The position numbers were made by a program, and so were the translations under genes. A stretch of DNA of 64,000 nt from Dehalococcoidia bacterium. Lineage in GTDB: Bacteria; Chloroflexota; Dehalococcoidia; UBA6926. Below the pieces are notes generated by a model. That model was not told the DNA's origin and did no database searches. It worked only from the letters and a program-made list of their open reading frames with translations. The first letter of the stretch is position 1; the number at the start of each line of letters is the position of its first letter. Below, piece by piece: positions 46,805 to 59,120 of the stretch. The stretch spans positions 74,891-138,890 of the forward strand of contig DAOUJJ010000005.1 of NCBI GenBank assembly GCA_034422835.1. The letters run 5' to 3'.

Positions 46805-47470
46805 TCAGGAGATGAGTTTTCTCAGGCGCGGCCCACTCTCTTTCACAAGGGACTCGCGCTTGATCTTTTCCTGCAGCTTGAGGAGGCCGTGAAGCAAGGC
46901 GTCGGGACGCGGGGGGCAGCCGGGCACATAGACGTCGACGGGCACCAAGCGATTGACGCCCGGAACGACGCTGTAGCCCTGGTAATACGGCCCGCCGCTT
47001 GTGGCGCAGACACCCATGGAGATGACCCACTTGGGGTTCGGCATCTGCTCATAGATGCGGCGGACGACGGGCGCCATCTTCCACGTCACCGTGCCGGAGA
47101 CGATCATCAGATCAGCCTGTCGCGGCGAGGCGCGGAAGATCTCCATGCCGAATCGCGCTTGGTCGAATCGCGGCATCACGGCGGCGATCATCTCAAAGGC
47201 GCAGCAGGCGAGGCCAAGCGTAACGGGCCACACGGAGTTGGAGCGGCCCCAATCCAGCAGCGCATCAAGGGATGTGACGAGAACCGAGCGCTTGAGCGAC
47301 TCGGGAACCTCAATCGGCTCATCGACGTGCTGCTCCGTCGCCAGGGCGCGCAGCCGCTCGATAACCTCTCCCTCTTCATTGTCCAACTGGTTCGTGGTAA
47401 CTGTGAGAGGAATGCCGTAGGGCGAGGGCAGCTGCTCAGGCCCGGGCGGCGTGGGGGTCATTTCTGCCAC
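46805..47470 (-). CDS. nuoB: NADH-quinone oxidoreductase subunit B (20-kDa, N2 cluster)
   Basis: Shows GLACCAFEM…GVCATSGG…VPGCPP cluster-binding cysteines and a long acidic N-terminal extension. Confidence 0.9.
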
Positions 47471-47850
47471 TCAAGCGCCTCCTTTTTCCATTCATAGAGG
47501 AATCCAACGAGCACAAACAGGAGGAATATCGCCATGCCGATGAACGCCACCCATCCCAGTGAGAGAAATCGCGCCGCCCATGGCAGCAGGAAGATCACTT
47601 CAACGTCAAAGATGACAAAGAGCAGGGCGAACAGGTAGAAGCGGAAGTTGAATTGCACATTTGCCTCTCCCGTTGGGACCATTCCGGACTCATACGTCAT
47701 GCGCATGAACCGGGGCTCCTGGTCGGCGGGTGTGGAGGGTCGAATGCGGATGCGCTGAAGCATCCCGGAGAAGATCATCAGGCTCAGCGGAACGAGTACG
47801 GCGGCAACTGCCATAGCCGCGATAATCCAATACTTGCCACTCTCAACCAC
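47458..47850 (-). CDS. nuoA: NADH-quinone oxidoreductase subunit A
   Basis: 130 aa with 3 TM (…YESGMVP…[12 protein letters not shown]…), the first gene of the cluster. Confidence 0.85.
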
Positions 47851-47902: not shown

Positions 47903-48958
47903 ATGTACGCGCGCGCGGCCATGTCAAATGGCATGGGTCGAAACGTGCCGTATCCTAATCGCATGACAATTCCTGCCGAACCGCTGCTAAGCGTGGACAA
48001 TCTGCACACGTCCTTTTTCACCCAGGACGGCACCGTCAAGGCCGTTCAGGAAACGAGCTTTGCCGTTCGCCCCGGGGAAATCCTGGGCATCGTCGGCGAG
48101 AGCGGCTGCGGCAAGACGACGGCGGGCCTCTCCGTGATGGGACTCGTGCCCTACCCCGGCCGGGTGGTGGACGGGCGCATCAGCTTCAGGGGAACCGACC
48201 TGGATGAGATGGACGAGGACGATCGTCGCATCCTGCGCGGCGAGGCGATGGCCATGATATTCCAGGACCCGCAGGCCGCGCTAAATCCCCTTATCACCAT
48301 CGGCGACCAGATCGCGGAGATATTCAACGCGCACGGGCGCATTGACGCGGATGAGGTGCGTGAGCAAACGCTGACGGCCCTGGCCTCGCTCGGCCTGCCG
48401 GACCCCGAGCACGTCATGCAAAGCTATCCGTGGGAGATGAGTGGCGGCATGTGCCAGCGGGCGATGCTGGCGATGATGCTGGTGCTGGAACCGGAGCTGC
48501 TCATCGCGGATGAGCCGACATCCGCGCTCGACGTGACGCTGCAAGCCGAGATTCTGGAACGAATCATGGGGTTGGCGAAAGACTCCGGCACGGCAATCAT
48601 CCTCATCACCCACGATATGGGTGTCATTGCGCGGGCGGCGGATAAGGTATTGGTGATGTACGGCGGGCGCATCGTGGAATCCGCCGACACGGTCACGCTG
48701 TTCCACAACCCCAGGCATCCCTATACCGCGGCGTTGTTGAACGCCGTACCCCGCCTGGACAGGGATACCAGGCCATTGCACGGCATTCCGGGGGCGCCGC
48801 CGGACCTGCTTGACCCGCCGGACGAGTGCCCATTCCTGCCCCGCTGCAACAAGGCAACCGTCGTCTGCCGCACAAATCCGATGCCGCCGCTGGTCACCAT
48901 CGATGAGGGGCACACCCTCGCCTGCTACAACCCCCTCACAGAGCCGCGGGTACGCTAA
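47903..48958 (+). CDS. ABC transporter ATP-binding protein (oligopeptide/dipeptide DppD/OppD type), orphan
   Basis: Walker A GESGCGKTT, signature MSGGMCQRA, Walker B LLIADEPTSALD and the C-terminal Opp-type extension. No permease or substrate-binding-protein genes are adjacent. The start is possibly ATG 47963. Confidence 0.75.
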   Translation: MYARAAMSNGMGRNVPYPNRMTIPAEPLLSVDNLHTSFFTQDGTVKAVQETSFAVRPGEILGIVGESGCGKTTAGLSVMGLVPYPGRVVDGRISFRGTDLDEMDEDDRRILRGEAMAMIFQDPQAALNPLITIGDQIAEIFNAHGRIDADEVREQTLTALASLGLPDPEHVMQSYPWEMSGGMCQRAMLAMMLVLEPELLIADEPTSALDVTLQAEILERIMGLAKDSGTAIILITHDMGVIARAADKVLVMYGGRIVESADTVTLFHNPRHPYTAALLNAVPRLDRDTRPLHGIPGAPPDLLDPPDECPFLPRCNKATVVCRTNPMPPLVTIDEGHTLACYNPLTEPRVR

Positions 48959-48962
48959 CCCA

Positions 48963-50030
48963 TTAGCCCCTCTGCGGCGTCCCAACGCCGCAGAGGTCTG
49001 CGATGAGCAGCTCCATCGCCGTGTCCTCGTTGAGCTGGCCGGTCTTGAGCGCGATGTCATAGTCCAGGATGGCCCGGTGCATCTCACGAAGGCGGGGCAT
49101 CGTGAAACTGCGGCTCTGGTTCACCGTTTTGCGGATAGCGAAATCGGAGCGCGTGCCGATAGCATCCTGGAGTTCGGACTGTGAGACGCGGCGATCCGTC
49201 GCGTCCTTGGCTGCCAGTAGCCGCCTGACCTGCGTGCCAAGCATGGCCATGATCTGCGGCACGGCTGCCCCGGTGTCCGCTCTCAGCCTCTCGATTCGCT
49301 CCCGGGCGCGGGGGTAGCGGCGCTCAATCACGTCATCGACCATCGCGAAGATGTTTTCCTCACGCGTTGCCCCGGTCATGGAGCTAACATCCTCAACCGT
49401 GATCGGCCTGTCGGGTCCAGCGTAGAGCAGTAGCTTGTCGATCTCGTTGGAGAGCGCCCAAAGATTGCTGCCATGAGCATCGGCGAGCGCGCGCTGGGCC
49501 GCATTATCTATTCGGCCTCCTCGTTCGTGGACAGTTTGGCCGATCCATCCGGTCAGATCGTTGCCGCGCATGGGCGCGAACACACGAACGTTGGCAACGG
49601 GCGCGAGATGCCGCAGCAGCGGATTGGAGTCCGTGGCCGCATTATCCGACAGCACGAGGACGTTCGATTCCGGCAAGCCCGGGGCGATGTCCTTCAGTTG
49701 GCCCCACCCACGAAACGAGTCTGTTGATTGTGGCTCAGAATCCTGAAGAGCAGTCTGCCGGGAACGTGAAGACCGCCCAGCCCCTCTGCCGCCCCCGCCG
49801 CCCTGTGAACGGGAGAACATGCCCAGCAGCCCCTCAACAACCACAAGGCGGCCATTGGCGAGAAACGGCACCGCGCCCGCCTGTGCCACAACTTCCGCCG
49901 GAGTCGTGTCGGCTGCATTCAGCGTCACGGAATTGAGAGACGCCATCTCCGGGTCGCCGAGCTGTTCCCGGAGCGCATCGATGGCGCGCTTACGGGAATA
50001 GTCGTCCTCTCCGTAGTAGATCTCAAGCAT
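48963..50030 (-). CDS. holA: DNA polymerase III subunit delta
   Basis: HolA-like (…LEIYYGEDDY…LVLSDNAATDSNPLLRHLA…) with a low-complexity Gly/Arg/Ser insertion. The start is placed at ATG 50028-50030. The ORF track extends to 50135. Confidence 0.75.
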   Translation of the reverse strand: MLEIYYGEDDYSRKRAIDALREQLGDPEMASLNSVTLNAADTTPAEVVAQAGAVPFLANGRLVVVEGLLGMFSRSQGGGGGRGAGRSSRSRQTALQDSEPQSTDSFRGWGQLKDIAPGLPESNVLVLSDNAATDSNPLLRHLAPVANVRVFAPMRGNDLTGWIGQTVHERGGRIDNAAQRALADAHGSNLWALSNEIDKLLLYAGPDRPITVEDVSSMTGATREENIFAMVDDVIERRYPRARERIERLRADTGAAVPQIMAMLGTQVRRLLAAKDATDRRVSQSELQDAIGTRSDFAIRKTVNQSRSFTMPRLREMHRAILDYDIALKTGQLNEDTAMELLIADLCGVGTPQRG

Positions 50031-50094
50031 GACGGTTCCCTGCTTTTCCTGTTGCCGCGCGGCACGCGTCTCCGTACAATATGCCGCAATACCT

Positions 50095-52428
50095 ATGACA
50101 TCATCGCCCGCGTCGCTGCAAGAGCGATACGACATTATTGCCGCCCTGCCCGGGACATCCCTGTATTCAGTCTATTCCGCCATCGAACGTGAAAGCGGCG
50201 ATGCGGTAGAAATCCGAGAGCCGCGTGTTCGCGCCCTTGAGAATACGTCCACGCTGGGGCCGTTTCACTCGCTCATGGACCGGCATCTGGATGTCCATCA
50301 TGCGCATCTGGGCAGATTGTTGGAAATCCACCCGGACGGCGAGACATTCTGGATGGTGTATGAGCCGGCGCGCGGCGAGCAGCTCCGCGGATGGCTCACA
50401 CGAGGGCTGCAGCTTGATGAGGCGCTGCAGCTCATAGCTCAGGCAGCGTCGGGACTACAGGCGCTGCATGACGCAGGCCTCATCCACGGTGACGTTAATT
50501 CTCGCGATGTCTTTGTCACGCCCGTGTCCGGCGCGCAGCTCCGGAACGCCGGGCTGTCCGAGTTGTCTATCAGTATGAGCGGCCTGCAGTCGTCTCTGCA
50601 GATTCCTCTGCCCGCATTCATGGCGCCGGAGGTCCTGCGCGGTTCCGAGCCGGGGCCAAAGTCGGACATCTTCTCACTCGGCATGGTGCTGTATGAGACG
50701 CTGACCGGCCATTTGCCCTTCACCGGCAACAATCGTGACACCGTGCGGGTTAAGCAGCAGGAGGGGCGTATCGCGCCTGTTACCGCGCTGAACCCTGCAC
50801 TGCCCGCCGCGCTGGACGAGATTGTGGGCAGGGCGCTTGCATGGGACCCGAACGAGCGCTTCGCATCCGCGCAGGAGATGCGGGAAACGCTGTTGGAGTT
50901 TCGGAACAACCTCCCCATGCCGGAGGCGCAGATTGTTGTCCCCGACGAGGCTGCGCGGCAGGAGATCCTGGAGGACATCGCTCAATTCGAGCCAACGCGC
51001 ATGAGCGTGGATGGGGACGGAACAGGCAAGTTCCGCGTTTGCGGGGAGTGCCTCGCCATCAATCTTGCAAGCGTGACACGCTGCGCTGTGTGCTGGCGGG
51101 ATATTCGAGATGCGCCCGTGCTGAGTCGCACTGAGGCAGAGGAATTTGCGCAGGGCACTCAACGCCGGCGAACCAGACAGAAGTGGGTACGCCGCGGAGC
51201 AGTCGCCTTTGCCGTGCTCGCCCTGCTCGTCCTGTTCATCTATGACCGCGGCGCTCCGCCCGGCCTTTTGACCGGCCCCCCAACAACCACGCTAACGGCG
51301 CAAATCGGCGACGGCCTGTGGACGACTCCGCGTGGCGGGGCCGCCAGCATGGGCAGCGCCACTACCGTAGATGCCGTGCCGCAGGGAGTTGAGCGCTGGC
51401 GCACGGAAATCGGGGCGGAGGTGACGTCGTCGCCGACAATCGCCGATGGCCGCGTATTCGTCACGACTCTCGATGCCCGGATCTTTGCATATTCGACTGA
51501 AGACGGTTCACTGATCTGGGAACGGCCGGGGCCCGGCCCAATGGACGCGTCGCCAATAGTCGCGGATGATCGGCTCTACATCGCATACAGAAATTCGAGA
51601 TTGGCCGCGCTTGAAGCCGACACCGGTGAGACAATCTGGGAATCCGTGATCTCGAACCCGCTTTTCTCCTGGGTCAACGTTGCTGATGGCAGCGTGTACC
51701 TTTCGTCCCAGAACGGCGTGATCCAGGCGTTTGATGCCGGAACAGGCGAGAAGCGATGGGAGATAGAGACCGGAGACGGTATGTTCGCGCCTCCATCCAT
51801 CAGCGAGGGGATGGTCATCATCCCGACGCGGGGCAACCAGGTTCTTGTTCTCGTCGGCGAGACGGGGCAGACACGGCTCAGTTATGTTGTTCCCGCCGCG
51901 GTTGAGGGGGCCGCTGCGGTGAGTCACGGTACGGCCGCGTTCGGCGACGTGCGCGGATTCATTTACGCCATCGACATCCGAGCACAGAACCTTCCATTCG
52001 AAAAGACAGTTCTCAGATTCTGGGCCCAGTTCGCCATCTGGGGTCTCGCCCCTTTCCCGCCTGCGCAGAGCGGCACGGCATGGACTCACAGCATTCGGGA
52101 AGAGGTCTGGGCTGACGCAGCCATCGCTGGCAATCGCGCATTCTTCGCAACGCGAGAGGGCAATGTCTACGCTTTCACTCTTACCGGCGGCCAGGAACTG
52201 TGGAAGACGGCGCTGGGCGACGAGCCTGCCTGGGCCGGCTCGCCCACGGTCGTAGATGACGTGCTGTACGTCGGATCACAAGACGGGCGCCTCTATGCTC
52301 TTGACACAGTCACAGGCGACCACGTGTGGAGCCTTGACCTCGAGTACTCGGTGTCCTCAGCGCCGGCCTATGCTGACGGCGGCCTCTTTGTGCTGACCGA
52401 CAACGGCACGCTCTACGCTTTCGAGTAG
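50095..52428 (+). CDS. membrane-anchored protein with a kinase-fold (predicted pseudokinase) domain, zinc-ribbon, TM and PQQ-repeat beta-propeller
   Basis: The N-terminal roughly 270 aa align to Ser/Thr protein kinases (APE: FMAPEV; SDIFSLGMVLYETLTGHLPF). Catalytic residues are substituted: the VAIK Lys becomes Arg (VEIRE), HRD becomes HGD, the catalytic-loop K becomes N and N becomes D (HGDVNSRD), and DFG becomes NAG. A CGECLA…CAVCW zinc ribbon follows, then the TM AVAFAVLALLVLFIY, then about 400 aa of repeated PQQ-like WxxxxG… motifs (LIWER…, TIWES…, KRWEI…, ELWKT…, HVWSL…). Confidence 0.75.
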   Translation: MTSSPASLQERYDIIAALPGTSLYSVYSAIERESGDAVEIREPRVRALENTSTLGPFHSLMDRHLDVHHAHLGRLLEIHPDGETFWMVYEPARGEQLRGWLTRGLQLDEALQLIAQAASGLQALHDAGLIHGDVNSRDVFVTPVSGAQLRNAGLSELSISMSGLQSSLQIPLPAFMAPEVLRGSEPGPKSDIFSLGMVLYETLTGHLPFTGNNRDTVRVKQQEGRIAPVTALNPALPAALDEIVGRALAWDPNERFASAQEMRETLLEFRNNLPMPEAQIVVPDEAARQEILEDIAQFEPTRMSVDGDGTGKFRVCGECLAINLASVTRCAVCWRDIRDAPVLSRTEAEEFAQGTQRRRTRQKWVRRGAVAFAVLALLVLFIYDRGAPPGLLTGPPTTTLTAQIGDGLWTTPRGGAASMGSATTVDAVPQGVERWRTEIGAEVTSSPTIADGRVFVTTLDARIFAYSTEDGSLIWERPGPGPMDASPIVADDRLYIAYRNSRLAALEADTGETIWESVISNPLFSWVNVADGSVYLSSQNGVIQAFDAGTGEKRWEIETGDGMFAPPSISEGMVIIPTRGNQVLVLVGETGQTRLSYVVPAAVEGAAAVSHGTAAFGDVRGFIYAIDIRAQNLPFEKTVLRFWAQFAIWGLAPFPPAQSGTAWTHSIREEVWADAAIAGNRAFFATREGNVYAFTLTGGQELWKTALGDEPAWAGSPTVVDDVLYVGSQDGRLYALDTVTGDHVWSLDLEYSVSSAPAYADGGLFVLTDNGTLYAFE

Positions 52429-52435
52429 CCCCGCC

Positions 52436-53536
52436 ATGGACGTTGGCATCATCGGCCTGCCCTCAAGCGGCAAGACCACATTGCTCAACGCTCTCACACA
52501 TGCCCACGCGGAGACGGGCGCATTCAGCGCCGCCCAACAGCCCAACCTTGGAGTCGTCCGCATCCCTGATCCCCGGCTGGACCGCATCTCGGAGTTGGTT
52601 GAACCGAAGCGCGTTGTGCAGGCAGAGCTTTCGTTCATCGATATTCCGGGACAGCCGCCGGAGATGGGCAAGTCGCGCGGCATCCAGGGGCAGTACCTGC
52701 TGGAGGTGAGCCAGGCCGACGCGCTTCTGCTGGTGGTTCGCGGTTTTCGTTCTCCGGCTCTGCCCGATCCGACGCCGGACACCGACGTCGAAACGATGCT
52801 CATGGAGATGGTGTTCGCAGACATGGCCATCGTCACACGGCGGCTTGAGCGCATCGATGATTCCCTGAAAGGGGCCCGCGCCACGGAACGAGACACAATG
52901 TTGGCCGAGGCTGATCTGCTACGTCGACTCCACGGCGCGCTCGAAAACAGCGAAGCTATCCGAAGCGTGGACATGACTCCCGACGAGGAGCGGATGATCT
53001 CCGGTTTCACATTCCTGACGACCAAGCCGCTGATCATCGTGCTGAACATTTCAGAGGACGATTTGGCACGCAGTGATGAATTGTCGATGGAGTGGAACAC
53101 CACACACGGCGGCTCCACTACAGGCTGCATCGCGCTCTCAGCCCGGCTGGAAGAGGAATTATCCCAGCTTGAGCCGGAGGAGGCCGCAGCGTTCCGTGAG
53201 GAGATGGGCGCGCCGCATGATGCCACCGGCGAGTTGTCACGACTTGCCCAGAACGTGGCGGGCCTCATCACGTTCTACACGGTTGGGCCAAACGAGACAC
53301 GGGCATGGCAGCTTGAGACGGACACACCTGCCCCACAGGCAGCGGGCAGGAAGATTCACACGGACATGGAACGTGGTTTCATCCGCGCTGAGGTCACGTC
53401 CTACCATGACTTCATCGCGGTGGAGGGCAAGTTCGCCGAGGCGCGCCGCCGCGGCACACTCCGCCAGGAGGGCAAGACCTACATCATCCAGGACGGAGAC
53501 GTCGTAACGTTCCTGTTCAACGTCTCAGGGCGGTAA
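52436..53536 (+). CDS. ychF: redox-regulated ATPase YchF/OLA1 (Obg-family GTPase with C-terminal TGS domain)
   Basis: N-terminal P-loop GIIGLPSSGKTTLLNALT and the C-terminal TGS-like segment …GFIRAEVTSYHDFIAVEG…GKTYIIQDGDVVTFLFNVS. Confidence 0.8.
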   Translation: MDVGIIGLPSSGKTTLLNALTHAHAETGAFSAAQQPNLGVVRIPDPRLDRISELVEPKRVVQAELSFIDIPGQPPEMGKSRGIQGQYLLEVSQADALLLVVRGFRSPALPDPTPDTDVETMLMEMVFADMAIVTRRLERIDDSLKGARATERDTMLAEADLLRRLHGALENSEAIRSVDMTPDEERMISGFTFLTTKPLIIVLNISEDDLARSDELSMEWNTTHGGSTTGCIALSARLEEELSQLEPEEAAAFREEMGAPHDATGELSRLAQNVAGLITFYTVGPNETRAWQLETDTPAPQAAGRKIHTDMERGFIRAEVTSYHDFIAVEGKFAEARRRGTLRQEGKTYIIQDGDVVTFLFNVSGR

Positions 53537-55867
53537 CTACCCCTGCGCGTCCTGGATGGCGCGCCAGACACGCTCGGGCGTTAGCGGCATCTCAATGTGG
53601 CTGACACCGAGAGGAGAAAGTGCATCGACGACCGCGTTTACCACGGCGGACGGCGCGCCCGTCGTCGGGCCTTCGCCCATTCCCTTGACACCCAGTGAGT
53701 TCAGCGGGGAGGGCGTCTCCGAAAACGCCACGACGAATTCCGGCGTCATCTCAGCCGTCGGTATCGCATAATCCATCAGCGAGGCATTCAGGAGCTGTCC
53801 GGCCTGATCGTATTCGGAAATCTCGTACAGTGCCTGGCCGATGCCCTGCGTCGCGCCGCCATGCACCTGCCCCACCACCGTCATCGGGTTCACGATGACA
53901 CCCTGATCGTCGACGGTGTACAGGCGCTGTAGGTCAACGTCACCTGTTTCGATGTCTACATCAACGACGGCGATATACGTGCCGAAGTTGTACGTAAGGC
54001 CGCTCGGCTGGAAGAACGAGTCCTCATCCAGGCCGAATTCCATATCCGCCGGGCGCGCGAGCACCTGGAAAGACGCGTCGGCAACCTCGGCGAACGGGAG
54101 TCGTCGCTCCCCGTCCGTGGTGCAGATGAACACGCCGCCTTCCAGCGTTACCTGATCCGGCTCGCAGTTCATCATGTGGGCGGCGAGTTTCAGCATCTTG
54201 TCGCGCACCTTTTCGGCGGCGATCTTGGCGGACATGCCGCCCGTCACAAGCGCGCGGCTGCCGTATGTCCCGACTCCGTGCGCGATGGTGGCCGTGTCGC
54301 CATGGAGAACGGTCACGTCGGCATCTGAAATGCCAAAAACGTCGGCGACTATCTGGGCAAAGACGGTCTCGCCGCCCTGCCCATGTGGGGACGAGCCGGT
54401 GAACAGCGTGACCTTGCCGCCGCGGTCAACACGCACCCTGCCCCATTCGTAGCGGCTGCTGCTGGGATCAACCGGGCTGGGGCCGGAGCCGCCCGTCTTG
54501 ACCCAAGAGGCGATGCCGACGCCCATGTGACGCCCCTCCGCCCGTGCCTGCTGCTGCTGTTCTCGCAGTTGCTGATAGCTGCTGAGCTCCATGACTTGAT
54601 CCAAGGAGGCTTCGTAGTTTCCGCTGTCGAAAACATCCCCGCCGCCCGAGCGCATCGGCTGATCAAACGGCGGGAGGTAGTTGCGGCGTCGAATCTCTGT
54701 TGGATCGAGGCCAAGCTCACTGGCAAGTCGGTCCAGTCCGCGCTCGATGAGGTGAATGCCCTCCGGCCTGCCCGCGCCGCGGTACGGTCCCTGCGGCGTT
54801 GTATTCGTGTAGCCGTTCTCGACCTCGAATTCCACATTGGGTATGTCGTAGACACCGGTTGAAATCATGGCGGATGAGGCGGACAAGGACGGCTCAGGCC
54901 CCTTGGCGTACGCGCCGAGATCATGCAGATGGCGCACGCGGAGGCCGGTCAACTTGCCGTCCGCATCTGCGGAAACCTCCAGGTAGGATGTCTTGCCGCG
55001 CGCCTGGTGCATCGCCAAAAAGTCCTCGGTGCGCGTGGCAACCCACTTGACGGGCACGCCAAGCTGCATCGAGGCGATGCAGATGAGCGCATACTCCGGG
55101 TCCTCATGCTTCACGCCGAAACCGCCGCCAACATCCGGCGCAACCACGCGGACGCTGTCATTCGTCAGATGCAGGATCTCGGCAAGGTGATCACGCAGCG
55201 CGTGCGGCGTTTGAACCGTCGCCCACAGGCTCATCGTCTCCTGTACGGCGTCCCAGTGCGCGAGGCCGGCGCGGGGTTCCATCGGCACACCATGGATCTT
55301 CTGGTTCACGATCCGTTCACGAACGATAACCGCGGCCTCCTCGAATGCCTGGGAGACGTTCCCGAGTTGATAGCGCCAGTGGATGATCCCGTTCGGTCGG
55401 TCGTCATGGACGCGCGGGGCATCGTCTCTCAGCGCTTTCTCCACCTCGATTGCCGCCTCCAGCGGCTCGTAGTCGACAAAGATGAGGTCCGCCGCGTCCC
55501 GCGCTCCGTAGCGGGTATCAGCAACGACTACAGCGACAACTTCGCCGACATGTCGCGCCTTATCGACTGCAATCAGGTCATATGGAGCCGATTCCGCGTC
55601 GTAAAACTTCAGAGAGACGGTTGGATTGGTGCCGAATCGCGGGTGAATATCCTTTCCTGTCAGCACTGCGGTGACGCCGGGCGTCTGCAAGGCTGTCGAG
55701 GTGTCGATGCTGCGGATGCGCGCATGGGCGTGTGGACTGCGGACAAGGCTGGCCCATTGGATGCCGGGAACCTTGATGTCCTCGACAAACGCGCCGCGGC
55801 CACGCAGGAGCTTGTCATCCTCCCGCCGGGCGACCGACTGACCAACGAGTTTCGTATCCGTGGCCAT
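53537..55867 (-). CDS. form-II CoxL-like molybdopterin-binding large subunit (paralogue L')
   Basis: Shows MATDTKLVGQSVARREDDKLLRGRGAFVEDI and the active-site loop GPYRGAGRPEG (AYRGAGR type, not the AYXCSFR of bona fide CO dehydrogenase). The start is placed at ATG 55865-55867 with an AAAGGA Shine-Dalgarno, 20 nt after the FAD-subunit stop. Confidence 0.85.
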   Translation of the reverse strand: MATDTKLVGQSVARREDDKLLRGRGAFVEDIKVPGIQWASLVRSPHAHARIRSIDTSTALQTPGVTAVLTGKDIHPRFGTNPTVSLKFYDAESAPYDLIAVDKARHVGEVVAVVVADTRYGARDAADLIFVDYEPLEAAIEVEKALRDDAPRVHDDRPNGIIHWRYQLGNVSQAFEEAAVIVRERIVNQKIHGVPMEPRAGLAHWDAVQETMSLWATVQTPHALRDHLAEILHLTNDSVRVVAPDVGGGFGVKHEDPEYALICIASMQLGVPVKWVATRTEDFLAMHQARGKTSYLEVSADADGKLTGLRVRHLHDLGAYAKGPEPSLSASSAMISTGVYDIPNVEFEVENGYTNTTPQGPYRGAGRPEGIHLIERGLDRLASELGLDPTEIRRRNYLPPFDQPMRSGGGDVFDSGNYEASLDQVMELSSYQQLREQQQQARAEGRHMGVGIASWVKTGGSGPSPVDPSSSRYEWGRVRVDRGGKVTLFTGSSPHGQGGETVFAQIVADVFGISDADVTVLHGDTATIAHGVGTYGSRALVTGGMSAKIAAEKVRDKMLKLAAHMMNCEPDQVTLEGGVFICTTDGERRLPFAEVADASFQVLARPADMEFGLDEDSFFQPSGLTYNFGTYIAVVDVDIETGDVDLQRLYTVDDQGVIVNPMTVVGQVHGGATQGIGQALYEISEYDQAGQLLNASLMDYAIPTAEMTPEFVVAFSETPSPLNSLGVKGMGEGPTTGAPSAVVNAVVDALSPLGVSHIEMPLTPERVWRAIQDAQG

Positions 55868-55887
55868 GTCTTTGTCCTTTCTCGCGG

Positions 55888-56760
55888 TTATTCCCGGGCG
55901 CGCTCCACCGCCTGCGTGAGCGCGCGTTTGGTCAGCACGCGGCACAGATTCTGCCGATACTCCGGGGATCCGTGCAGGTCTGCAATGCACTCAAGGCCAT
56001 CCGCCGCCATGGCGGACGCCGCTGCAATGGCGTCCGGTGTCGGCACCTGCCCTCTCAGCGTCTCTTCGACGGCCGTTGCGCGGGCTGCGCGCGACGCCGC
56101 GCCGGTGATGCCCACGGCGACACGGGACAGGTAACCGCTGTCATCCAACGAAACGGCCGCGGCCACGCCGACGATGGCAAAGTGTGACGCCTTGTTCGCG
56201 AATTTGAGATAAGCCGCGCCCGTCCGCCCCTCTGAGATGGGGATGATAATCTCCGTGATGATCTCGTCCTCGGCAAGCGTTGTGATGAACGCGTCCATGA
56301 TGAGTTCATCAACGGATACGACGCGCACGCCGTTCGGCCCTGCAATCTCAACCTGCGCGTCAAGCGCAAGCAAGGTGGCGGGATAGTCGGCGACGGGGTC
56401 GGCGTGCGCGATGCTGCCGCCGAGCGTGCCGAGATTCCGCACCTGCACATCTGCGATCTCCGCGGCCGTTTCAGCCAGGACCGGAATCGTGTCAAGGACG
56501 ACGTCGGACCCGGCGACGTGAGCATGACTCGTCATCGAGCCGATTCGCAGATTGTTGCCGTCCGAGCTGATGTGGGACAACTCGCCGCGCGTCTTGCGCA
56601 AATCAACCACGAGGCCGGGCATGGCGACGCGGAGCTTCATCATCGGAAGGAGGCTCTGACCACCGGCAATGACCTTACCCTCGCCGGGCCGCTGTTGAAG
56701 GAGGATGATTGCCTCCGCAACAGAATCAGGGGCGGCGTAGTCGAATGCTCCGGGAATCAT
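55888..56760 (-). CDS. xanthine-dehydrogenase-family FAD-binding medium subunit (CoxM-like)
   Basis: Shows MIPGAFDYAAPDSVAEAI…GGQSLLPMMKLR. Its ATG overlaps the upstream L-subunit TGA (ATGA). Confidence 0.85.
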   Translation of the reverse strand: MIPGAFDYAAPDSVAEAIILLQQRPGEGKVIAGGQSLLPMMKLRVAMPGLVVDLRKTRGELSHISSDGNNLRIGSMTSHAHVAGSDVVLDTIPVLAETAAEIADVQVRNLGTLGGSIAHADPVADYPATLLALDAQVEIAGPNGVRVVSVDELIMDAFITTLAEDEIITEIIIPISEGRTGAAYLKFANKASHFAIVGVAAAVSLDDSGYLSRVAVGITGAASRAARATAVEETLRGQVPTPDAIAAASAMAADGLECIADLHGSPEYRQNLCRVLTKRALTQAVERARE

Positions 56761-59120
56761 GACTGATCTCCATTCTGCGCGTCCTGTATGGCGCGCCACA
56801 CGCACTCCGGCGTTAGCGGCATCGCGATGTCACGAACATTGAACGGGGCGAGAGCGTCAACAACTGCGTTGACCACGGCGGGGGGCGCGCCCGTCGTCGG
56901 CCCCTCTCCCATGCCCTTGACACCGAGTGGATTAGTTGGCGACGGAGTCTCGATGAATTCGGAGATGAATTCCGGCATCATCTCCGCCGTCGGCAGCGCA
57001 TAGTCCATTAGGGACCCGCTGAGCAGCTGGCCGTTCTCGTCGTAGACGATGTCCTCATAGAGCGCCTGGCCGATTCCCTGCGCTGCGCCGCCGTGAACCT
57101 GCCCCTCCACGATGACCGGATGCACGACCACGCCCTGGTCATCCACGCAGAACAATTGCTGCAGGTCTACGTCGCCTGTTTCAGGATCAACCTCCACCAC
57201 AGCGACATATGTGCCGTAGTTGAAGGTGAGGTGAGTCGGCTGGTAGAACGACGATTCGTCCAGTCCCATTTCCATGCTGGGCGGCCGCTCCAAGACCTGG
57301 TTGATTCGGGCAGCAACCTCGCGGAAGGTGATTGACGAGCCGTTGGCTGCGAACACGCCGTCCGTGAACTGCACGCCGTCCGGCTCTGCACCCAACGTGT
57401 GGGCAGCGAACCGGGTCATCTTTGCGAGGATCTTCTGGGAAGCCTGGAGCACGGCCATTCCGCCCACAACCATGTTCCGGCTGGCGAATGTGCCCATGCC
57501 ATACGTCACTGTCGCCGTATCACCGTGTGTGACGGAGATGTCGTCCAGTGGGACATGAAGAGTGTCCGCTGCCACCTGCGCGTAGGTTGTGTAGTTGCCC
57601 TGCCCGTGCGGCGAGGAACCCGTGTAGATGGTCACTGCTCCAGCGGGAGACACCTTCACACGCGCCCACTCAGGCATGGACGAGGAAGGGTCGAGGGACG
57701 ACGGGCCGAAGCCGCCGGTCTTGACCCAGGACGCGAGCCCGATCCCCAGATATTTCCCGTCTTCGCGCATTTCGCGTTGCCGCGCGCGCAAGCCCTCGTA
57801 GTCACTGACCTCAAGAGCCCGCTCCAGCGCCTCGGGGTAGTTTCCGCTGTCGTAGATGTCTCCGCCGGGCGTGCGGTAGTACGGGAACTCCTCCGGTTGG
57901 ATCATGTTCCGCCTGCGGATTTCCGCAGGGTCGATGTCGAGGTCACGCGCCAGCATGTCCATGGCGCGTTCGATCAGGTAGATTCCCTCGGGTCGACCGT
58001 ACCCGCGGTAGGCCCCCTCCGGCGTGTGGTTGGTGTAGACGGAATGGACTTCAAACGCGGCCTCTCGAATGCCATAGACACCGGTCGCGATGATGGCGGA
58101 TGTTTGCGCGACGATTGGAGTTGCGCCCTTGGGAAACGCGCCCAAATCCGTAGTGTGGCGGAGGCGCAGCGCCTTGACGCGACCGTCACGATCGGCGGCA
58201 ATCTCAAACTCCGAGGTTTTTCCACGCGCGTGGCTGAGGGATAGGAACTCTTCCGTGCGCGATGCAGCCCACTTGACCGGCAAGCCGAGCTCCATTGACG
58301 CGATGGCCAGAAGGAAGTACTCGACCTCTCCACCGTGTTTCGCGCCAAATCCCCCGCCGACGTCCGGCGCGACGGAGCGAATCTGATCGGGAGAAATGCC
58401 CAGCACCTCCGCCATCTGCGTTCGCAGTTCATGCGCACCCTGGATGGATGCCCAGATAGTCAGGAACTGCGTGGCGGGGTCCCAGTGGGCGATGCCGGCG
58501 CGCGGCTCCATGGGGACAGCGTGAATTCGCTGGTTGTTGAAATCATGCCGCAGGATAATCTCGGAGTCCTCGAACGTGCGGGACACATTCTCCGTGCTCT
58601 TGAGCCACCGAACCTGCTCATTGGAGCGGCCGTCATGCACTTCAGGCGCGCCGGGCTCCATCGCCTGCTCCGGTGTGTTGGCTACCCGCAGCGGCTCATA
58701 GTCGACTCTCAGCAGATCAGCCGCGTCGCGCGCCGCCTCCCGCGTCTCTCCAACGACAATGGCAACGATTTCCCCGGCGTACTTGGCCTTGTTCCTGGCG
58801 ATGAGGGTGAACGCGGGAGCGCCGCCTTCGTTGTCGCGATTCTCCGCGTCTCGCACGGCGAGAACGGGCGGAATCGGGTTATAGCGCGGATGGACATCCT
58901 CTCCGGTGAGAACACGCAGCGCTCCCGGATGAGCCAGCGCAGCCGAAGAATCGATATTGAGGATGCGGGCGTGAGCATGCGGGCTGCGGACGAAGTGCGC
59001 CCAGACGGTTCCAGGTATGTTGATGTCGTCGGAGAACGCGCCCTGCCCACGCAGCAGGCGATCATCTTCCTTGCGCCGGGGCGACTGGCCGATCTGACGA
59101 GGCGGGCTGTCTGTGGTCAT
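56757..59120 (-). CDS. form-II CoxL-like molybdopterin-binding large subunit (paralogue L)
   Basis: Shows MTTDSPPRQIGQSPRRKEDDRLLRGQGAFSDDI and the active-site loop GAYRGYGRPEG. The start is ATG 59118-59120 with a GGTGAGGTGAG Shine-Dalgarno, 10 nt after the S-subunit stop. Confidence 0.85.
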   Translation of the reverse strand: MTTDSPPRQIGQSPRRKEDDRLLRGQGAFSDDINIPGTVWAHFVRSPHAHARILNIDSSAALAHPGALRVLTGEDVHPRYNPIPPVLAVRDAENRDNEGGAPAFTLIARNKAKYAGEIVAIVVGETREAARDAADLLRVDYEPLRVANTPEQAMEPGAPEVHDGRSNEQVRWLKSTENVSRTFEDSEIILRHDFNNQRIHAVPMEPRAGIAHWDPATQFLTIWASIQGAHELRTQMAEVLGISPDQIRSVAPDVGGGFGAKHGGEVEYFLLAIASMELGLPVKWAASRTEEFLSLSHARGKTSEFEIAADRDGRVKALRLRHTTDLGAFPKGATPIVAQTSAIIATGVYGIREAAFEVHSVYTNHTPEGAYRGYGRPEGIYLIERAMDMLARDLDIDPAEIRRRNMIQPEEFPYYRTPGGDIYDSGNYPEALERALEVSDYEGLRARQREMREDGKYLGIGLASWVKTGGFGPSSLDPSSSMPEWARVKVSPAGAVTIYTGSSPHGQGNYTTYAQVAADTLHVPLDDISVTHGDTATVTYGMGTFASRNMVVGGMAVLQASQKILAKMTRFAAHTLGAEPDGVQFTDGVFAANGSSITFREVAARINQVLERPPSMEMGLDESSFYQPTHLTFNYGTYVAVVEVDPETGDVDLQQLFCVDDQGVVVHPVIVEGQVHGGAAQGIGQALYEDIVYDENGQLLSGSLMDYALPTAEMMPEFISEFIETPSPTNPLGVKGMGEGPTTGAPPAVVNAVVDALAPFNVRDIAMPLTPECVWRAIQDAQNGDQS

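What the first reader, a model, noticed from the sequence alone, without database searches (positions are those of the whole stretch)
50095..52428. Membrane pseudokinase fused to a zinc ribbon and an extracellular PQQ beta-propeller
The N-terminal domain is unmistakably kinase-fold: the APE motif FMAPEV, the αF/αG region SDIFSLGMVLYETLTGHLPF, and …DPNERFASAQEM. Every catalytic residue is altered. The VAIK Lys is Arg, HRD is HGD, the catalytic-loop Lys and Asn are Asn and Asp (HGDVNSRD), DFG is NAG, and the Gly-rich loop is degenerate (PGTSLYSV). It is therefore predicted to be catalytically dead. A C4 zinc ribbon, one TM helix and about 400 aa of PQQ-type WD-like repeats follow. This is a sensor-like architecture resembling AfsK/PknD-type kinases, but with an inactive kinase module. 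It could be a scaffold or allosteric partner of an active kinase, or a novel signalling mode. It is divergent from holA with only a short intergenic gap.
Basis: partly seen in the sequence, partly recalled or inferred. Interest (0 to 1): 0.55.

Follow-up and report, generated by a model that had tools for sequence, protein, structure and literature searches.

The report
Conserved membrane pseudokinase with BamB-like propeller
This Dehalococcoidia gene encodes a single-pass membrane receptor whose inner kinase-like domain has lost most catalytic residues but is strongly conserved, so it is a real, selected "dead kinase", a new variant of a recently described kind of bacterial protein.

Summary
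Window 50095-52428 (+) encodes a 777-aa protein with five parts: a Hanks-type kinase fold, a C4 zinc ribbon, one TM helix (N-in), an 8-bladed BamB-like propeller, and a conserved insertion in that propeller.

Alignment to PknB and to active kinases confirms the register:
- β3 Lys is Arg41.
- αC Glu is Leu60.
- HRD is HGD.
- Catalytic-loop Lys and Asn are Asn and Asp.
- DFG is NAG.
- The Gly loop is degenerate.

One correction: the catalytic Asp (D133) is retained and invariant.

The degeneracy is not recent decay. 23 orthologues (39-98% identity) share it. The pseudokinase domain has the lowest dN/dS of all domains (0.05-0.08).

The clade is nested in a Chloroflexota-wide family that sits in the same holA / receptor / ychF-like gene order. 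In that family, 16 of 42 representatives keep all four catalytic residues, 17 have HxN, and some positional orthologues lack the kinase domain entirely.

Most likely function: a non-catalytic scaffold or allosteric module of a surface receptor. It is probably co-transcribed with a divergent YchF-like ATPase; any functional link to it is speculative.

Pseudokinase plus PQQ-propeller proteins are already described (ActPs1, 2025), but this clade fails ActPs1 and ActPs2 descriptors. Verdict: new variant of a known kind, moderate interest.

The parts
50052..50080 (+). Promoter-like site TTGCCG-17-TACAAT. The -10 box ends 14 nt before the ATG and no Shine-Dalgarno is visible, which implies a very short leader.
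   Evidence: This is the only match in 49900-50250, against 0.1 expected. TTGCC is invariant, the -10 box is conserved, and the spacing is fixed in L002-L008. The sequence was read directly.
50095..52428 (+). Whole gene: a 777-aa single-pass (N-in/C-out) receptor-like pseudokinase, stop codon included.
   Evidence: The exact protein is present in public collections.
50116..50910 (+). Pseudokinase domain (residues 8-272) with a Hanks-type fold.
   Evidence: Pfam Pkinase E 7.8e-23. PknB E 5.5e-27. AF2 C-lobe pLDDT is 80-96. dN/dS is 0.05-0.08.
50215..50217 (+). Arg41 in place of the β3 (VAIK) Lys. It is invariant within the clade.
   Evidence: There is no Lys anywhere in residues 1-90.
50485..50508 (+). 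Catalytic loop HGDVNSRD (residues 131-138). H, G and D are invariant. The catalytic-loop Lys is Asn. The Mg-binding Asn position is variable (D/N/S/A/V).
50545..50553 (+). NAG (residues 151-153) in place of DFG. Both the metal-binding Asp and the regulatory-spine Phe are lost.
   Evidence: Variants in the clade are NAG, NGG, GAG, GGG and GSG.
50605..50631 (+). Activation-segment end IPLPAFMAPE (residues 171-179 are PLPAFMAPE). P171 and P173 replace the Ser/Thr-kinase P+1 'GT' motif. APE is retained.
   Evidence: PxPxY is a superfamily-wide signature.
51028..51102 (+). C4 zinc ribbon (residues 312-336, CxxC-x10-CxxCW), on the cytoplasmic side next to the membrane.
   Evidence: The four Cys are invariant and are the only Cys in the protein. 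Short β-strands are modelled here. The ribbon is present in most superfamily members and in the kinase-less orthologues.
51196..51243 (+). Single transmembrane helix (hydrophobic core, residues 368-383).
   Evidence: The only Kyte-Doolittle peak above 1.6 lies here. Flanking charges are +7/-3 on the N side and +1/-1 on the C side. AF2 models a helix at 345-383.
51385..52425 (+). Extracytoplasmic 8-bladed β-propeller (residues 431-777) of PQQ_2 / BamB type.
   Evidence: Pfam PQQ_2 E 1.3e-46. The model has 32 strands in 8 blades. The best Foldseek matches are BamB structures (3q7m TMt 0.83, E 4e-26).
51976..52074 (+). Insertion between blades 5 and 6 (residues 628-660, NLPxEKTVLRFWxQFxIWGxAPFPPAQSG). 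It is the most conserved segment of the protein and the family signature.
   Evidence: Mean pairwise identity is 0.87, against 0.60-0.68 for the blades. It is present in the whole superfamily and in the kinase-less forms, and absent from canonical AfsK-like kinase + PQQ proteins. pLDDT is low, 43-54.
52436..53536 (+). Downstream YchF-like ATPase gene, 7 nt after the stop codon. It is probably co-transcribed. Its switch-I region is divergent.
   Evidence: Pfam YchF-GTPase_C E 3.4e-32. TIGR00092 scores 260.5 bits against a cut-off of 279.2. No promoter-like or terminator-like site lies between the two genes. Adjacency is conserved in every orthologous locus examined except one.
48963..50030 (-). 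Divergent upstream neighbour holA (DNA polymerase III delta). It is context only, not part of the system.
   Evidence: TIGR01128 scores 199.6 bits against a cut-off of 80. The ATG at 50030 was read.

Best explanation
The gene encodes a conserved, catalytically inactive receptor-like pseudokinase of Dehalococcoidia.

Topology (shown from sequence and model). The N-terminal kinase fold and the C4 zinc ribbon are cytoplasmic. One TM helix follows. An 8-bladed BamB-like propeller with a strongly conserved aromatic insertion faces outward.

Origin (shown by comparison). The gene is the positional orthologue of a Chloroflexota-wide receptor family in the holA / receptor / ychF-like gene order. Some members of that family keep all catalytic residues. 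Many have lost the catalytic Asp (HxN). A few have lost the whole kinase domain. The window's clade lost the β3 Lys, the αC Glu, the catalytic-loop Lys and Asn, and the DFG Asp and Phe. It has kept the domain under strong purifying selection since.

Mechanism (inferred). The propeller binds an extracytoplasmic protein or envelope ligand. The signal passes through the TM helix and the zinc ribbon to the pseudokinase domain. That domain acts without phosphotransfer, as a dimerising scaffold or allosteric docking module. The conserved αG (TVRVKQ) and activation-segment (PxPxY) surfaces are the likely contact sites.

Candidate partner (weak inference from gene order only). The leading candidate is the co-transcribed divergent YchF-like ATPase. 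An unlinked active Hanks kinase is the alternative.
For: Fold and register.

Loss of catalytic residues:
- K>R41, L60 at the αC Glu position, the HGDVNSRD catalytic loop, NAG in place of DFG, and the PGTSLY Gly loop.
- No Lys in residues 1-90, so WNK-type compensation is not possible.
- The regulatory-spine Phe of DFG is replaced by Ala, Gly or Ser.

Selection:
- 23 orthologues at 39-98% identity share the substitutions.
- dN/dS of the pseudokinase domain is 0.05-0.08, against 0.12-0.16 for the propeller.
- C-lobe pairwise identity is 0.78, against 0.60-0.68 for the blades.

Derived state:
- The clade is nested in the NJ tree, next to P0124 and P0125, which keep K and DFG.
- 16 of 42 superfamily representatives keep all four catalytic residues.
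- Positional orthology is shown by conserved gene order.

Core module: kinase-less positional orthologues retain zinc ribbon, TM helix and propeller.

Propeller: BamB-like, TMt 0.83.

Operon with ychF-like:
- The gap is 7 nt, with no promoter-like or terminator-like site between the genes.
- The gap is 6-43 nt in all eight kinase-bearing loci tabulated.

Precedent: bacterial pseudokinase families with TM and PQQ_2 domains are described, and non-catalytic roles are proposed for them (PMC12599244).
Against: No biochemical data exist for any member. 'Dead' is inferred from sequence alone.

The invariant D133 and R41 leave room for nucleotide binding or an unusual catalysis. The review notes that K>R pseudokinases such as KSR1 and EphB6 still bind ligands, and that ActPs2 is modelled with ATP.

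The link to YchF rests on gene order only. That gene order sits in small genomes inside a block of unrelated housekeeping genes (holA, hemN-like, selB, nurA). It also persists in kinase-less loci.

No partner kinase, phosphatase or FHA protein was looked for genome-wide.

The ligand of the propeller is unknown. The AF2 model has only moderate confidence overall (mean pLDDT 72.7). It is poor for the insertion and for the αG-preceding loop 210-224.
Confidence: 0.6

Rival explanations
1. It is an atypical but active enzyme. Arg41 and the retained catalytic Asp133 would support ATP binding and phosphotransfer, or another nucleotide-dependent reaction, by a non-canonical and possibly metal-independent mechanism. 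Several eukaryotic 'pseudokinases' turned out to work this way.
For: D133, H131 and R41 are invariant. The domain is under the strongest purifying selection of the protein. The literature notes ligand binding by K>R pseudokinases and ATP docking in ActPs2 models.
Against: Several elements are lost at once: the Mg-binding Asn (a variable position), the DFG Asp, the DFG Phe, the αC Glu, G1 and G2 of the Gly loop, and the P+1 'GT' motif. There is no alternative Lys in the N-lobe. Kinase-less positional orthologues exist, so catalysis is not essential to the locus.
Confidence: 0.12
2. It is the non-catalytic partner or substrate of an unlinked active Hanks kinase. It would be phosphorylated on its activation segment (S166 aligns with PknB pThr173) or would allosterically activate that kinase by dimerising with it.
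For: S166 and S167 lie at the PknB phospho-site position, and S167 is at least 90% conserved. The αG and C-lobe surfaces are conserved. Kinase-pseudokinase pairs are well established in eukaryotes (general knowledge; reviewed in PMC12599244).
Against: No second kinase-like ORF lies in the 64-kb window or within 10 kb of 15 orthologous loci. S166 is Ala in several orthologues. Genome-wide kinase content could not be examined with these tools.
Confidence: 0.15
3. The kinase fold is a functionally vestigial cytoplasmic appendage. The working unit is the zinc ribbon, TM helix and propeller, and the pseudokinase is retained only because it must fold and stay soluble.
For: Positional orthologues of 477-525 aa lack the domain entirely but keep zinc ribbon, TM helix, propeller and the signature insertion. 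Catalytic residues erode repeatedly across the superfamily.
Against: The pseudokinase domain has the lowest dN/dS (0.05-0.08) and higher identity than the propeller. Surface motifs with no fold-maintenance role are invariant (TVRVKQ in αG, PxP in the activation segment).
Confidence: 0.1
4. It is a recent, strain-specific decay of an active kinase (an incipient pseudogene), or the alignment register is wrong.
For: Distant positional orthologues carry canonical K/HRD/N/DFG. One orthologous locus (L009) has a frameshift.
Against: The substitutions are fixed across 23 intact orthologues down to 39% identity. dN/dS is far below 1. The register is confirmed by two independent alignments.
Confidence: 0.01

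Closest known systems
ActPs1 bacterial pseudokinase family (O'Boyle et al. 2025; PMC12599244 and bioRxiv 10.1101/2025.01.12.632604)
   Same: A Hanks-fold pseudokinase that lacks the VAIK Lys and the DFG Asp, with a C-terminal PQQ_2 β-propeller. Its function is unknown and presumed non-catalytic.
   Different: - 99-100% of ActPs1 members lack the HRD Asp; here that Asp is invariant.
- About 60% of ActPs1 members lack the G helix; here αG is present and conserved.
- ActPs1 is actinobacterial and derived from Act1; this clade is from Chloroflexota and nested in its own receptor family.
- No zinc ribbon or propeller insertion is reported for ActPs1.
ActPs2 bacterial pseudokinase family (same sources)
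   Same: A conserved Arg replaces the β3 Lys, and a C-terminal TM region follows.
   Different: ActPs2 has HRD Asp>Asn, a deleted DFG, a ~30-aa β3-αC insertion and a 200-250-aa activation-loop insertion. None of these is present here. ActPs2 has no propeller.
AfsK (Streptomyces) and RqkA/DR2518 (Deinococcus): active Ser/Thr kinases with PQQ-repeat propellers
   Same: The architecture is kinase fold, linker, then PQQ-type propeller. RqkA is cited in the review as PQQ-stimulated.
   Different: Those are catalytically competent. Canonical kinase + PQQ proteins recovered here (P0192, P0201, P0219 and others) have GxGxFG, VAVK, HRDxKPxN, DFG and GTxxY, and lack both the zinc ribbon and the propeller insertion. 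The AfsK model scores 119.8 bits against a cut-off of 1300.
PknB / StkP (PASTA receptor kinases)
   Same: These are the closest solved kinase domains (E 5.5e-27). They share the N-in single-pass receptor topology and a core-genome location.
   Different: They are active kinases with PASTA ectodomains. NF033483 scores 130.7 bits against a cut-off of 450.
BamB (outer-membrane protein assembly factor)
   Same: An 8-bladed PQQ_2-type propeller that serves as a protein-interaction scaffold. It gives the best structural matches (TMt 0.82-0.83).
   Different: BamB is a periplasmic lipoprotein of diderm BAM complexes. Sequence identity is only 20%. TIGR03300 scores 168.8 bits against a cut-off of 285.2. 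Here the propeller is tethered by a TM helix and carries a family-specific insertion.
MviN/MurJ-linked pseudokinase of M. tuberculosis (ActPs3)
   Same: A membrane-tethered bacterial pseudokinase with a solved kinase-like fold and a scaffold role. It is mentioned in the atlas.
   Different: It is fused to a flippase and has an attenuated activation loop. Its lineage and motifs differ.

Membership tests
Hanks-type (eukaryotic-like) protein kinase fold, Pfam PF00069 | Sequence match above the Pfam gathering score, and a bilobal fold with APE, the αF Asp and the αH-αI Arg. | tested here: met
   81.6 bits against a cut-off of 31.7. PknB E 5.5e-27. APE, D191 and R255 are invariant. The AF2 model shows a kinase fold.
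Catalytically competent Hanks kinase | β3 (VAIK) Lys paired with the αC Glu. | tested here: not met
   R41 and L60 occupy these columns. R41 is invariant in 24 sequences. There is no Lys in residues 1-90.
Catalytically competent Hanks kinase | Catalytic-loop Asp (HRD). | tested here: met
   HGD, with D133 invariant.
Catalytically competent Hanks kinase | Catalytic-loop Lys and Mg-binding Asn (HRDxKxxN). | tested here: not met
   The loop is HGDVNSRD. The Asn column varies (D/N/S/A/V) within the clade.
Catalytically competent Hanks kinase | DFG Asp (metal binding) and DFG Phe (regulatory spine). | tested here: not met
   The motif is NAG, NGG, GAG, GGG or GSG.
Catalytically competent Hanks kinase | Gly-rich loop GxGxxG. 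| tested here: not met
   PGTSLY aligns to GxGxxG.
Catalytically competent Hanks kinase | Phosphotransfer activity or ATP binding. | not testable with these tools
   Needs biochemistry.
ActPs1 pseudokinases | VAIK Lys and DFG Asp absent (100% of members). | tested here: met
ActPs1 pseudokinases | HRD Asp absent (99-100% of members). | tested here: not met
   D133 is invariant.
ActPs1 pseudokinases | Monophyletic offshoot of the actinobacterial Act1 family. | tested here: inconclusive
   The clade is from Chloroflexota and nested among Chloroflexota receptor (pseudo)kinases in an NJ tree. No Act1 or ActPs1 reference sequences were available to include.
ActPs1 pseudokinases | C-terminal PQQ_2 domain (many members). 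| tested here: met
   PQQ_2 E 1.3e-46.
ActPs2 pseudokinases | β3 Lys>Arg conserved. | tested here: met
   R41 is invariant.
ActPs2 pseudokinases | HRD Asp>Asn, DFG deleted, a ~30-aa β3-αC insertion and a 200-250-aa activation-loop insertion. | tested here: not met
   The motif is HGD, NAG is present, and there are no such insertions. The domain aligns to PknB with only small gaps.
AfsK (NCBIfam NF053615) | Score above the curated cut-off. | tested here: not met
   119.8 bits against a cut-off of 1300.
BamB (TIGR03300) | Score above the curated cut-off; lipoprotein of a BAM complex. | tested here: not met
   168.8 bits against a cut-off of 285.2. The fold is similar (TMt 0.83), but the protein is TM-anchored and there is no lipobox.
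PQQ-dependent alcohol/glucose dehydrogenases (TIGR03075 / TIGR03074) | Score above the curated cut-off. | tested here: not met
   74.2 bits against a cut-off of 480, and 35.1 bits against a cut-off of 833.
Chloroflexota receptor (pseudo)kinase superfamily defined here | End-to-end match combining a degenerate G-loop, a PxPxY activation segment, a C4 zinc ribbon, a TM helix and an 8-blade propeller with the Q..WG..PP..G insertion, located between holA and ychF-like. | tested here: met

The most novel reading that the evidence does not exclude
The holA-adjacent receptor and the divergent YchF-like ATPase form an ancient two-gene signalling module of Chloroflexota. In it, a kinase fold that no longer needs catalysis (and is repeatedly degraded or deleted) couples an extracytoplasmic BamB-like propeller, through a juxtamembrane zinc ribbon, to a ribosome-associated ATPase. 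That would be a phosphorylation-independent transmembrane route from the cell surface to translation control.
Probability: 0.1. Interest if true: 0.75.

Novelty: new variant of a known kind. Interest (0 to 1): 0.45.

Why it matters
Bacterial pseudokinases were catalogued only recently. Seven families are listed, none from Chloroflexota, and none has been characterised experimentally beyond a few cases.

This locus adds a distinct family with a different pattern of loss: K>R and DFG>NAG, with the catalytic Asp kept.

More usefully, it offers a natural series of positional orthologues in one fixed gene order:
- forms with canonical-looking catalytic residues,
- HxN forms,
- K/DFG-less forms,
- forms with no kinase domain at all.

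Such a series would let one ask what a receptor kinase fold does once catalysis is gone. It would also let one ask whether the whole family was ever a conventional kinase.

The public annotation of these proteins ('PQQ-binding-like beta-propeller repeat protein') hides the kinase fold. The finding does not overturn anything known.

Tried and rejected
- Partner kinase nearby. An HMM built from six active kinases found only this ORF in the 64-kb window. It found only the orthologous gene within ±10 kb of 15 Dehalococcoidia loci. A genome-wide search was not possible with these tools.
- Named family. No NCBIfam model reaches its cut-off (PknB-PASTA, AfsK, BamB, MAD6, PglW, PQQ dehydrogenases).
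- Fold search. The afdb50 library was unavailable, so the UniProt/AFDB distribution was not obtained.
- Co-evolution of YchF switch-I loss with kinase degeneracy. Rejected. The divergent YchF accompanies canonical, degenerate and one kinase-less form alike. Only L013 has a canonical YchF.
- Second TM or re-entrant segment in the propeller insertion. Hydropathy is only 0.76 over its core, so it is not a TM helix.
- WNK-type relocated Lys. Excluded, because there is no Lys in residues 1-90.
- Opposite-strand ORFs inside the gene (50439-50978, 50674-51162, 51508-52089, 51576-51836). They were listed mechanically and not tested further. I treated them as by-products of the 62% G+C content. The + strand frame is the conserved one.
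- tRNA and Rfam scans of the window found nothing.
- Two literature searches failed on syntax. The repeat searches found no paper on this family in Chloroflexota.
Full report
**1. What is there**

The ORF listing gives one ORF, 50029..52428 (+). The ATG at 50029 would overlap holA, whose own ATG is at 50030 on the minus strand.

The 777-aa product matches Pfam Pkinase at residues 26-262 (81.6 bits, cut-off 31.7). It matches PQQ_2 / Beta-prop_ACSF4 over residues 430-776. The window is 61-64% G+C throughout, with no compositional break at the gene.

**2. Register of the catalytic motifs**

The best solved relative is M. tuberculosis PknB (3f61, E 5.5e-27). In that HMMER alignment:
- HGDVNSRD lies on HRDVKPAN.
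- NAG lies on DFG.
- FMAPE lies on YLSPE.
- SDIFSLG lies on SDVYSLG.

A MAFFT alignment with seven canonical bacterial kinases found adds the N-lobe:
- VEIR41 lies on VA(V/L)K.
- L60 lies on the αC Glu.
- LPGTSLYSVY lies on LGxGGMGxVY.

One correction is needed: the catalytic Asp of HxD (D133) is kept.

The DFG Phe, which is the regulatory-spine residue RS2 (established kinase knowledge), is also lost (A152). So is the Ser/Thr-kinase P+1 'GT' motif, which reads PLP here. The N-lobe (residues 1-90) contains no Lys at all, so a relocated WNK-style Lys is excluded.

**3. Rest of the anatomy**

- *Zinc ribbon.* The only four Cys of the protein form CxxC-x10-CxxCW at residues 316-333, and all four are invariant.
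- *TM helix.* A single hydrophobic peak lies at residues 364-388. It is preceded by a +7/-3 stretch and followed by a +1/-1 stretch. This gives N-in/C-out by the positive-inside rule.
- *AF2 model.* The model was built with the 24-sequence alignment. Mean pLDDT is 72.7 and pTM is 0.50. It shows a kinase fold with C-lobe pLDDT of 80-96 and a small β zinc-ribbon element. It also shows one long helix at 345-383 and 32 strands arranged as 8 four-stranded blades.
- *Propeller fold.* Foldseek against the PDB returns BamB structures first (3q7m, TMt 0.83, E 4e-26, 20% identity). The quinoprotein dehydrogenase models and the BamB equivalog all score far below their NCBIfam cut-offs. The propeller is best described as a BamB-like scaffold. 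'PQQ' here names the repeat, not a demonstrated cofactor.
- *Insertion.* A 33-residue insertion lies between blades 5 and 6 (residues 628-660, NLPxEKTVLRFWxQFxIWGxAPFPPAQSG). It is the most conserved stretch of the protein, with mean pairwise identity 0.87. It is modelled with low confidence and is not hydrophobic enough to be a TM segment.

**4. Is the degeneracy selected?**

A search of 5.8 billion proteins found 23 full-length orthologues (98% down to 39% identity, all about 777 aa). After them the score drops sharply from 634 to 136 bits. Where named, they come from Dehalococcoidia MAGs with chromosomes of 1.7-2.4 Mb.

In all of them I40-R41, H131-G132-D133 and G153 are invariant. The DFG position reads NAG, NGG, GAG, GGG or GSG. 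The column of the Mg-binding Asn is variable.

Nei-Gojobori dN/dS was computed between the window and four orthologous loci:

| Region | dN/dS |
|---|---|
| Pseudokinase domain | 0.05-0.08 |
| Propeller | 0.12-0.16 |
| Linkers | 0.11-0.23 |

The kinase-like domain is therefore the most constrained part of the protein. This excludes recent decay.

**5. Wider family and origin**

A profile search of 1.84 billion cluster representatives found many further proteins of about 750-830 aa that match positions 1-777 in a single stretch. Aligning 56 of them and reading the motif columns defines a superfamily with these features:
- a degenerate G-loop (LGSTGLATVY),
- a PxPxY-APE activation segment,
- the C4 zinc ribbon (lost in some members),
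- a TM helix,
- the propeller insertion.

Canonical AfsK-like kinase + PQQ proteins in the same hit list lack the zinc ribbon and the insertion.

Retention of catalytic residues among 42 superfamily representatives:

| Residue | Kept | Replaced |
|---|---|---|
| β3 Lys | 37 | 4 Arg (the window clade), 1 gap |
| HxD Asp | 23 | 17 Asn, 2 Gly |
| Catalytic Asn | 39 | 3 |
| DFG Asp | 33 | 9 |
| All four | 16 | n/a |

In an NJ tree of the kinase domain, the window clade is nested next to P0124 and P0125, which keep K and DFG. One named member is from 'Chloroflexota bacterium' (MBI2872004.1).

**6. Positional orthology**

The order holA(-) / receptor(+) / ychF-like(+), usually followed by hemN-like, selB and nurA, is found in these places:
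- the window,
- the 39% orthologue,
- L002-L008,
- seven distant superfamily members: P0130, P0145, P0170, P0134, P0146, P0141 and P0242.

Only P0136 lies elsewhere. These are therefore orthologues by position.

Some of them have canonical-looking catalytic sets: P0145 and P0146 have VALK/VAIK, HRD..N and DFG. The window clade's state is derived, but old.

Three positional orthologues have no kinase domain at all: L013, L014 and L089 (477-525 aa). They start just before the zinc ribbon, and only about 110 nt separate them from holA. Zinc ribbon, TM helix and propeller are thus the invariant core of the locus.

**7. Expression context**

A σ70-like site, TTGCCG-17-TACAAT, lies at 50052-50080. 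It is the only match in 49900-50250, where shuffles give 0.1. Its -35 box is invariant, and its -10 box keeps its sequence and spacing in L002-L008. It ends 14 nt before the ATG and no Shine-Dalgarno is visible. I infer a leader of roughly 7 nt.

The YchF-like gene starts 7 nt after the stop codon. No promoter-like or terminator-like site lies between the two genes. The gap is 6-43 nt in all eight kinase-bearing loci tabulated, and 174-229 nt in two kinase-less loci.

The paired YchF lacks the canonical switch-I FTTIEPN in every locus except L013. It scores just under the TIGR00092 cut-off (260.5 against 279.2). This divergence does not track the state of the kinase domain, so I do not claim co-evolution.

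E. coli YchF is reported to be phosphorylated on the P-loop Ser16, by an unknown kinase and with unknown consequence (PMC8779481). This is a lead only.

**8. Mechanism**

*Shown:* topology, fold, loss of five of the six catalytic or ATP-binding elements, strong purifying selection, derived state, and a conserved operon-like pairing.

*Inferred:* the domain works without phosphotransfer, as a scaffold or allosteric module of a surface receptor. The family-invariant non-core surfaces are the likely contact sites:
- TVRVKQ in αG. Superfamily-wide this reads xVxAKQ. In PknB this is a dimer and substrate-docking surface (my own knowledge).
- The PxPxY activation segment.

The partner is not identified. 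The co-transcribed YchF-like ATPase is the leading candidate, from gene order alone. An unlinked Hanks kinase is the alternative. None lies in the window or near any orthologue, but whole genomes could not be scanned.

**9. Comparison with what is known**

A 2025 atlas and review classify bacterial Ser/Thr kinases into 35 canonical and 7 pseudokinase families.

- *ActPs1* (Actinobacteria) combines a triple-degenerate pseudokinase with a C-terminal PQQ_2 domain, so the architecture as a kind is known. However, 99-100% of ActPs1 members lack the HRD Asp and about 60% lack the G helix. Here both are present and conserved.
- *ActPs2* shares the K>R change. It has HRN, a deleted DFG and two large insertions that are absent here.
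- *CCM1*, a canonical family, has a Chloroflexota branch and a PQQ subfamily. It is described with an N-terminal TM or FHA domain, unlike this protein.

The atlas used RefSeq and UniProt. These MAG proteins are GenBank-only, and where named they are labelled just 'PQQ-binding-like beta-propeller repeat protein'. I could not place the clade in a tree with the atlas reference sequences, so formal non-membership of ActPs1 rests on the HRD-Asp descriptor and on taxonomy.

**10. Verdict**

This is a selected pseudokinase receptor. It is a new variant of a recently described kind, not a new kind.

Its main value is the natural series of positional orthologues, which runs from canonical residues through HxN and K/DFG-less forms to kinase-less forms, together with the conserved pairing with a YchF-like ATPase. 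Interest is moderate (0.45).

Noticed in passing
L013:9956-11389 (+), L014:6732-8225 (+), L089:3088-4665 (+): Positional orthologues between holA and ychF have no kinase-like domain at all (477-525 aa). They start just before the C4 zinc ribbon and keep the TM helix, the propeller and the WG.AP.PP..G insertion.
   Followed up: partly
window 52436-53536 (+); also L012, L083-L089: The YchF-like ATPase paired with the receptor lacks the canonical switch-I motif FTTIEPN (the window reads SAAQQPN). It scores just below the TIGR00092 cut-off. Only the kinase-less locus L013 has a canonical YchF. Whether these genomes hold a second, canonical ychF is unknown.
   Followed up: partly
window 51976-52074 (+): A 33-residue aromatic, proline-rich insertion between propeller blades 5 and 6 is the most conserved part of the protein (0.87 identity) and a superfamily signature. 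It is modelled with low confidence. Its role (ligand lid, membrane-interface anchor or partner site) is unexplained.
   Followed up: partly
window 50052-50097 (+): A conserved promoter-like TTGCCG-17-TACAAT ends 14 nt before the ATG, and no Shine-Dalgarno is visible. This implies a near-leaderless mRNA. YchF has been linked to leaderless-mRNA translation in E. coli, going by the title of PMC8138138, which I did not read.
   Followed up: partly
L009:10001-12332 (CAXXET010000001.1): This orthologue is 2332 nt long, one base more than the others, and has a frameshift inside the kinase-like domain. The domain splits into two ORF pieces. This is either an assembly error or a real pseudogene in that MAG.
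   Followed up: no
window 53537-56805 (-): Downstream of ychF the window carries a molybdenum hydroxylase large subunit (Ald_Xan_dh_C, MoCoBD_1 and MoCoBD_2) and its FAD subunit (FAD_binding_5, CO_deh_flav_C) on the minus strand. More distant orthologous loci have hemN-like, selB and nurA there. This is a local rearrangement.
   Followed up: partly
L083:5503-5850, L084:5334-5681, L087:1678-2001: In several distant loci a small DUF1232 (PF06803) gene sits between holA and the receptor, on the receptor's strand. It is absent from the window, which has only 64 nt there.
   Followed up: no
window 1-64000: No tRNA genes and no Rfam families at gathering threshold in the whole 64-kb window. The nuo operon (nuoA and nuoB at 46805-47850, minus strand) and an oligopeptide-type ABC ATPase (47903-48958) lie upstream of holA, as in the orthologous loci.
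   Followed up: yes
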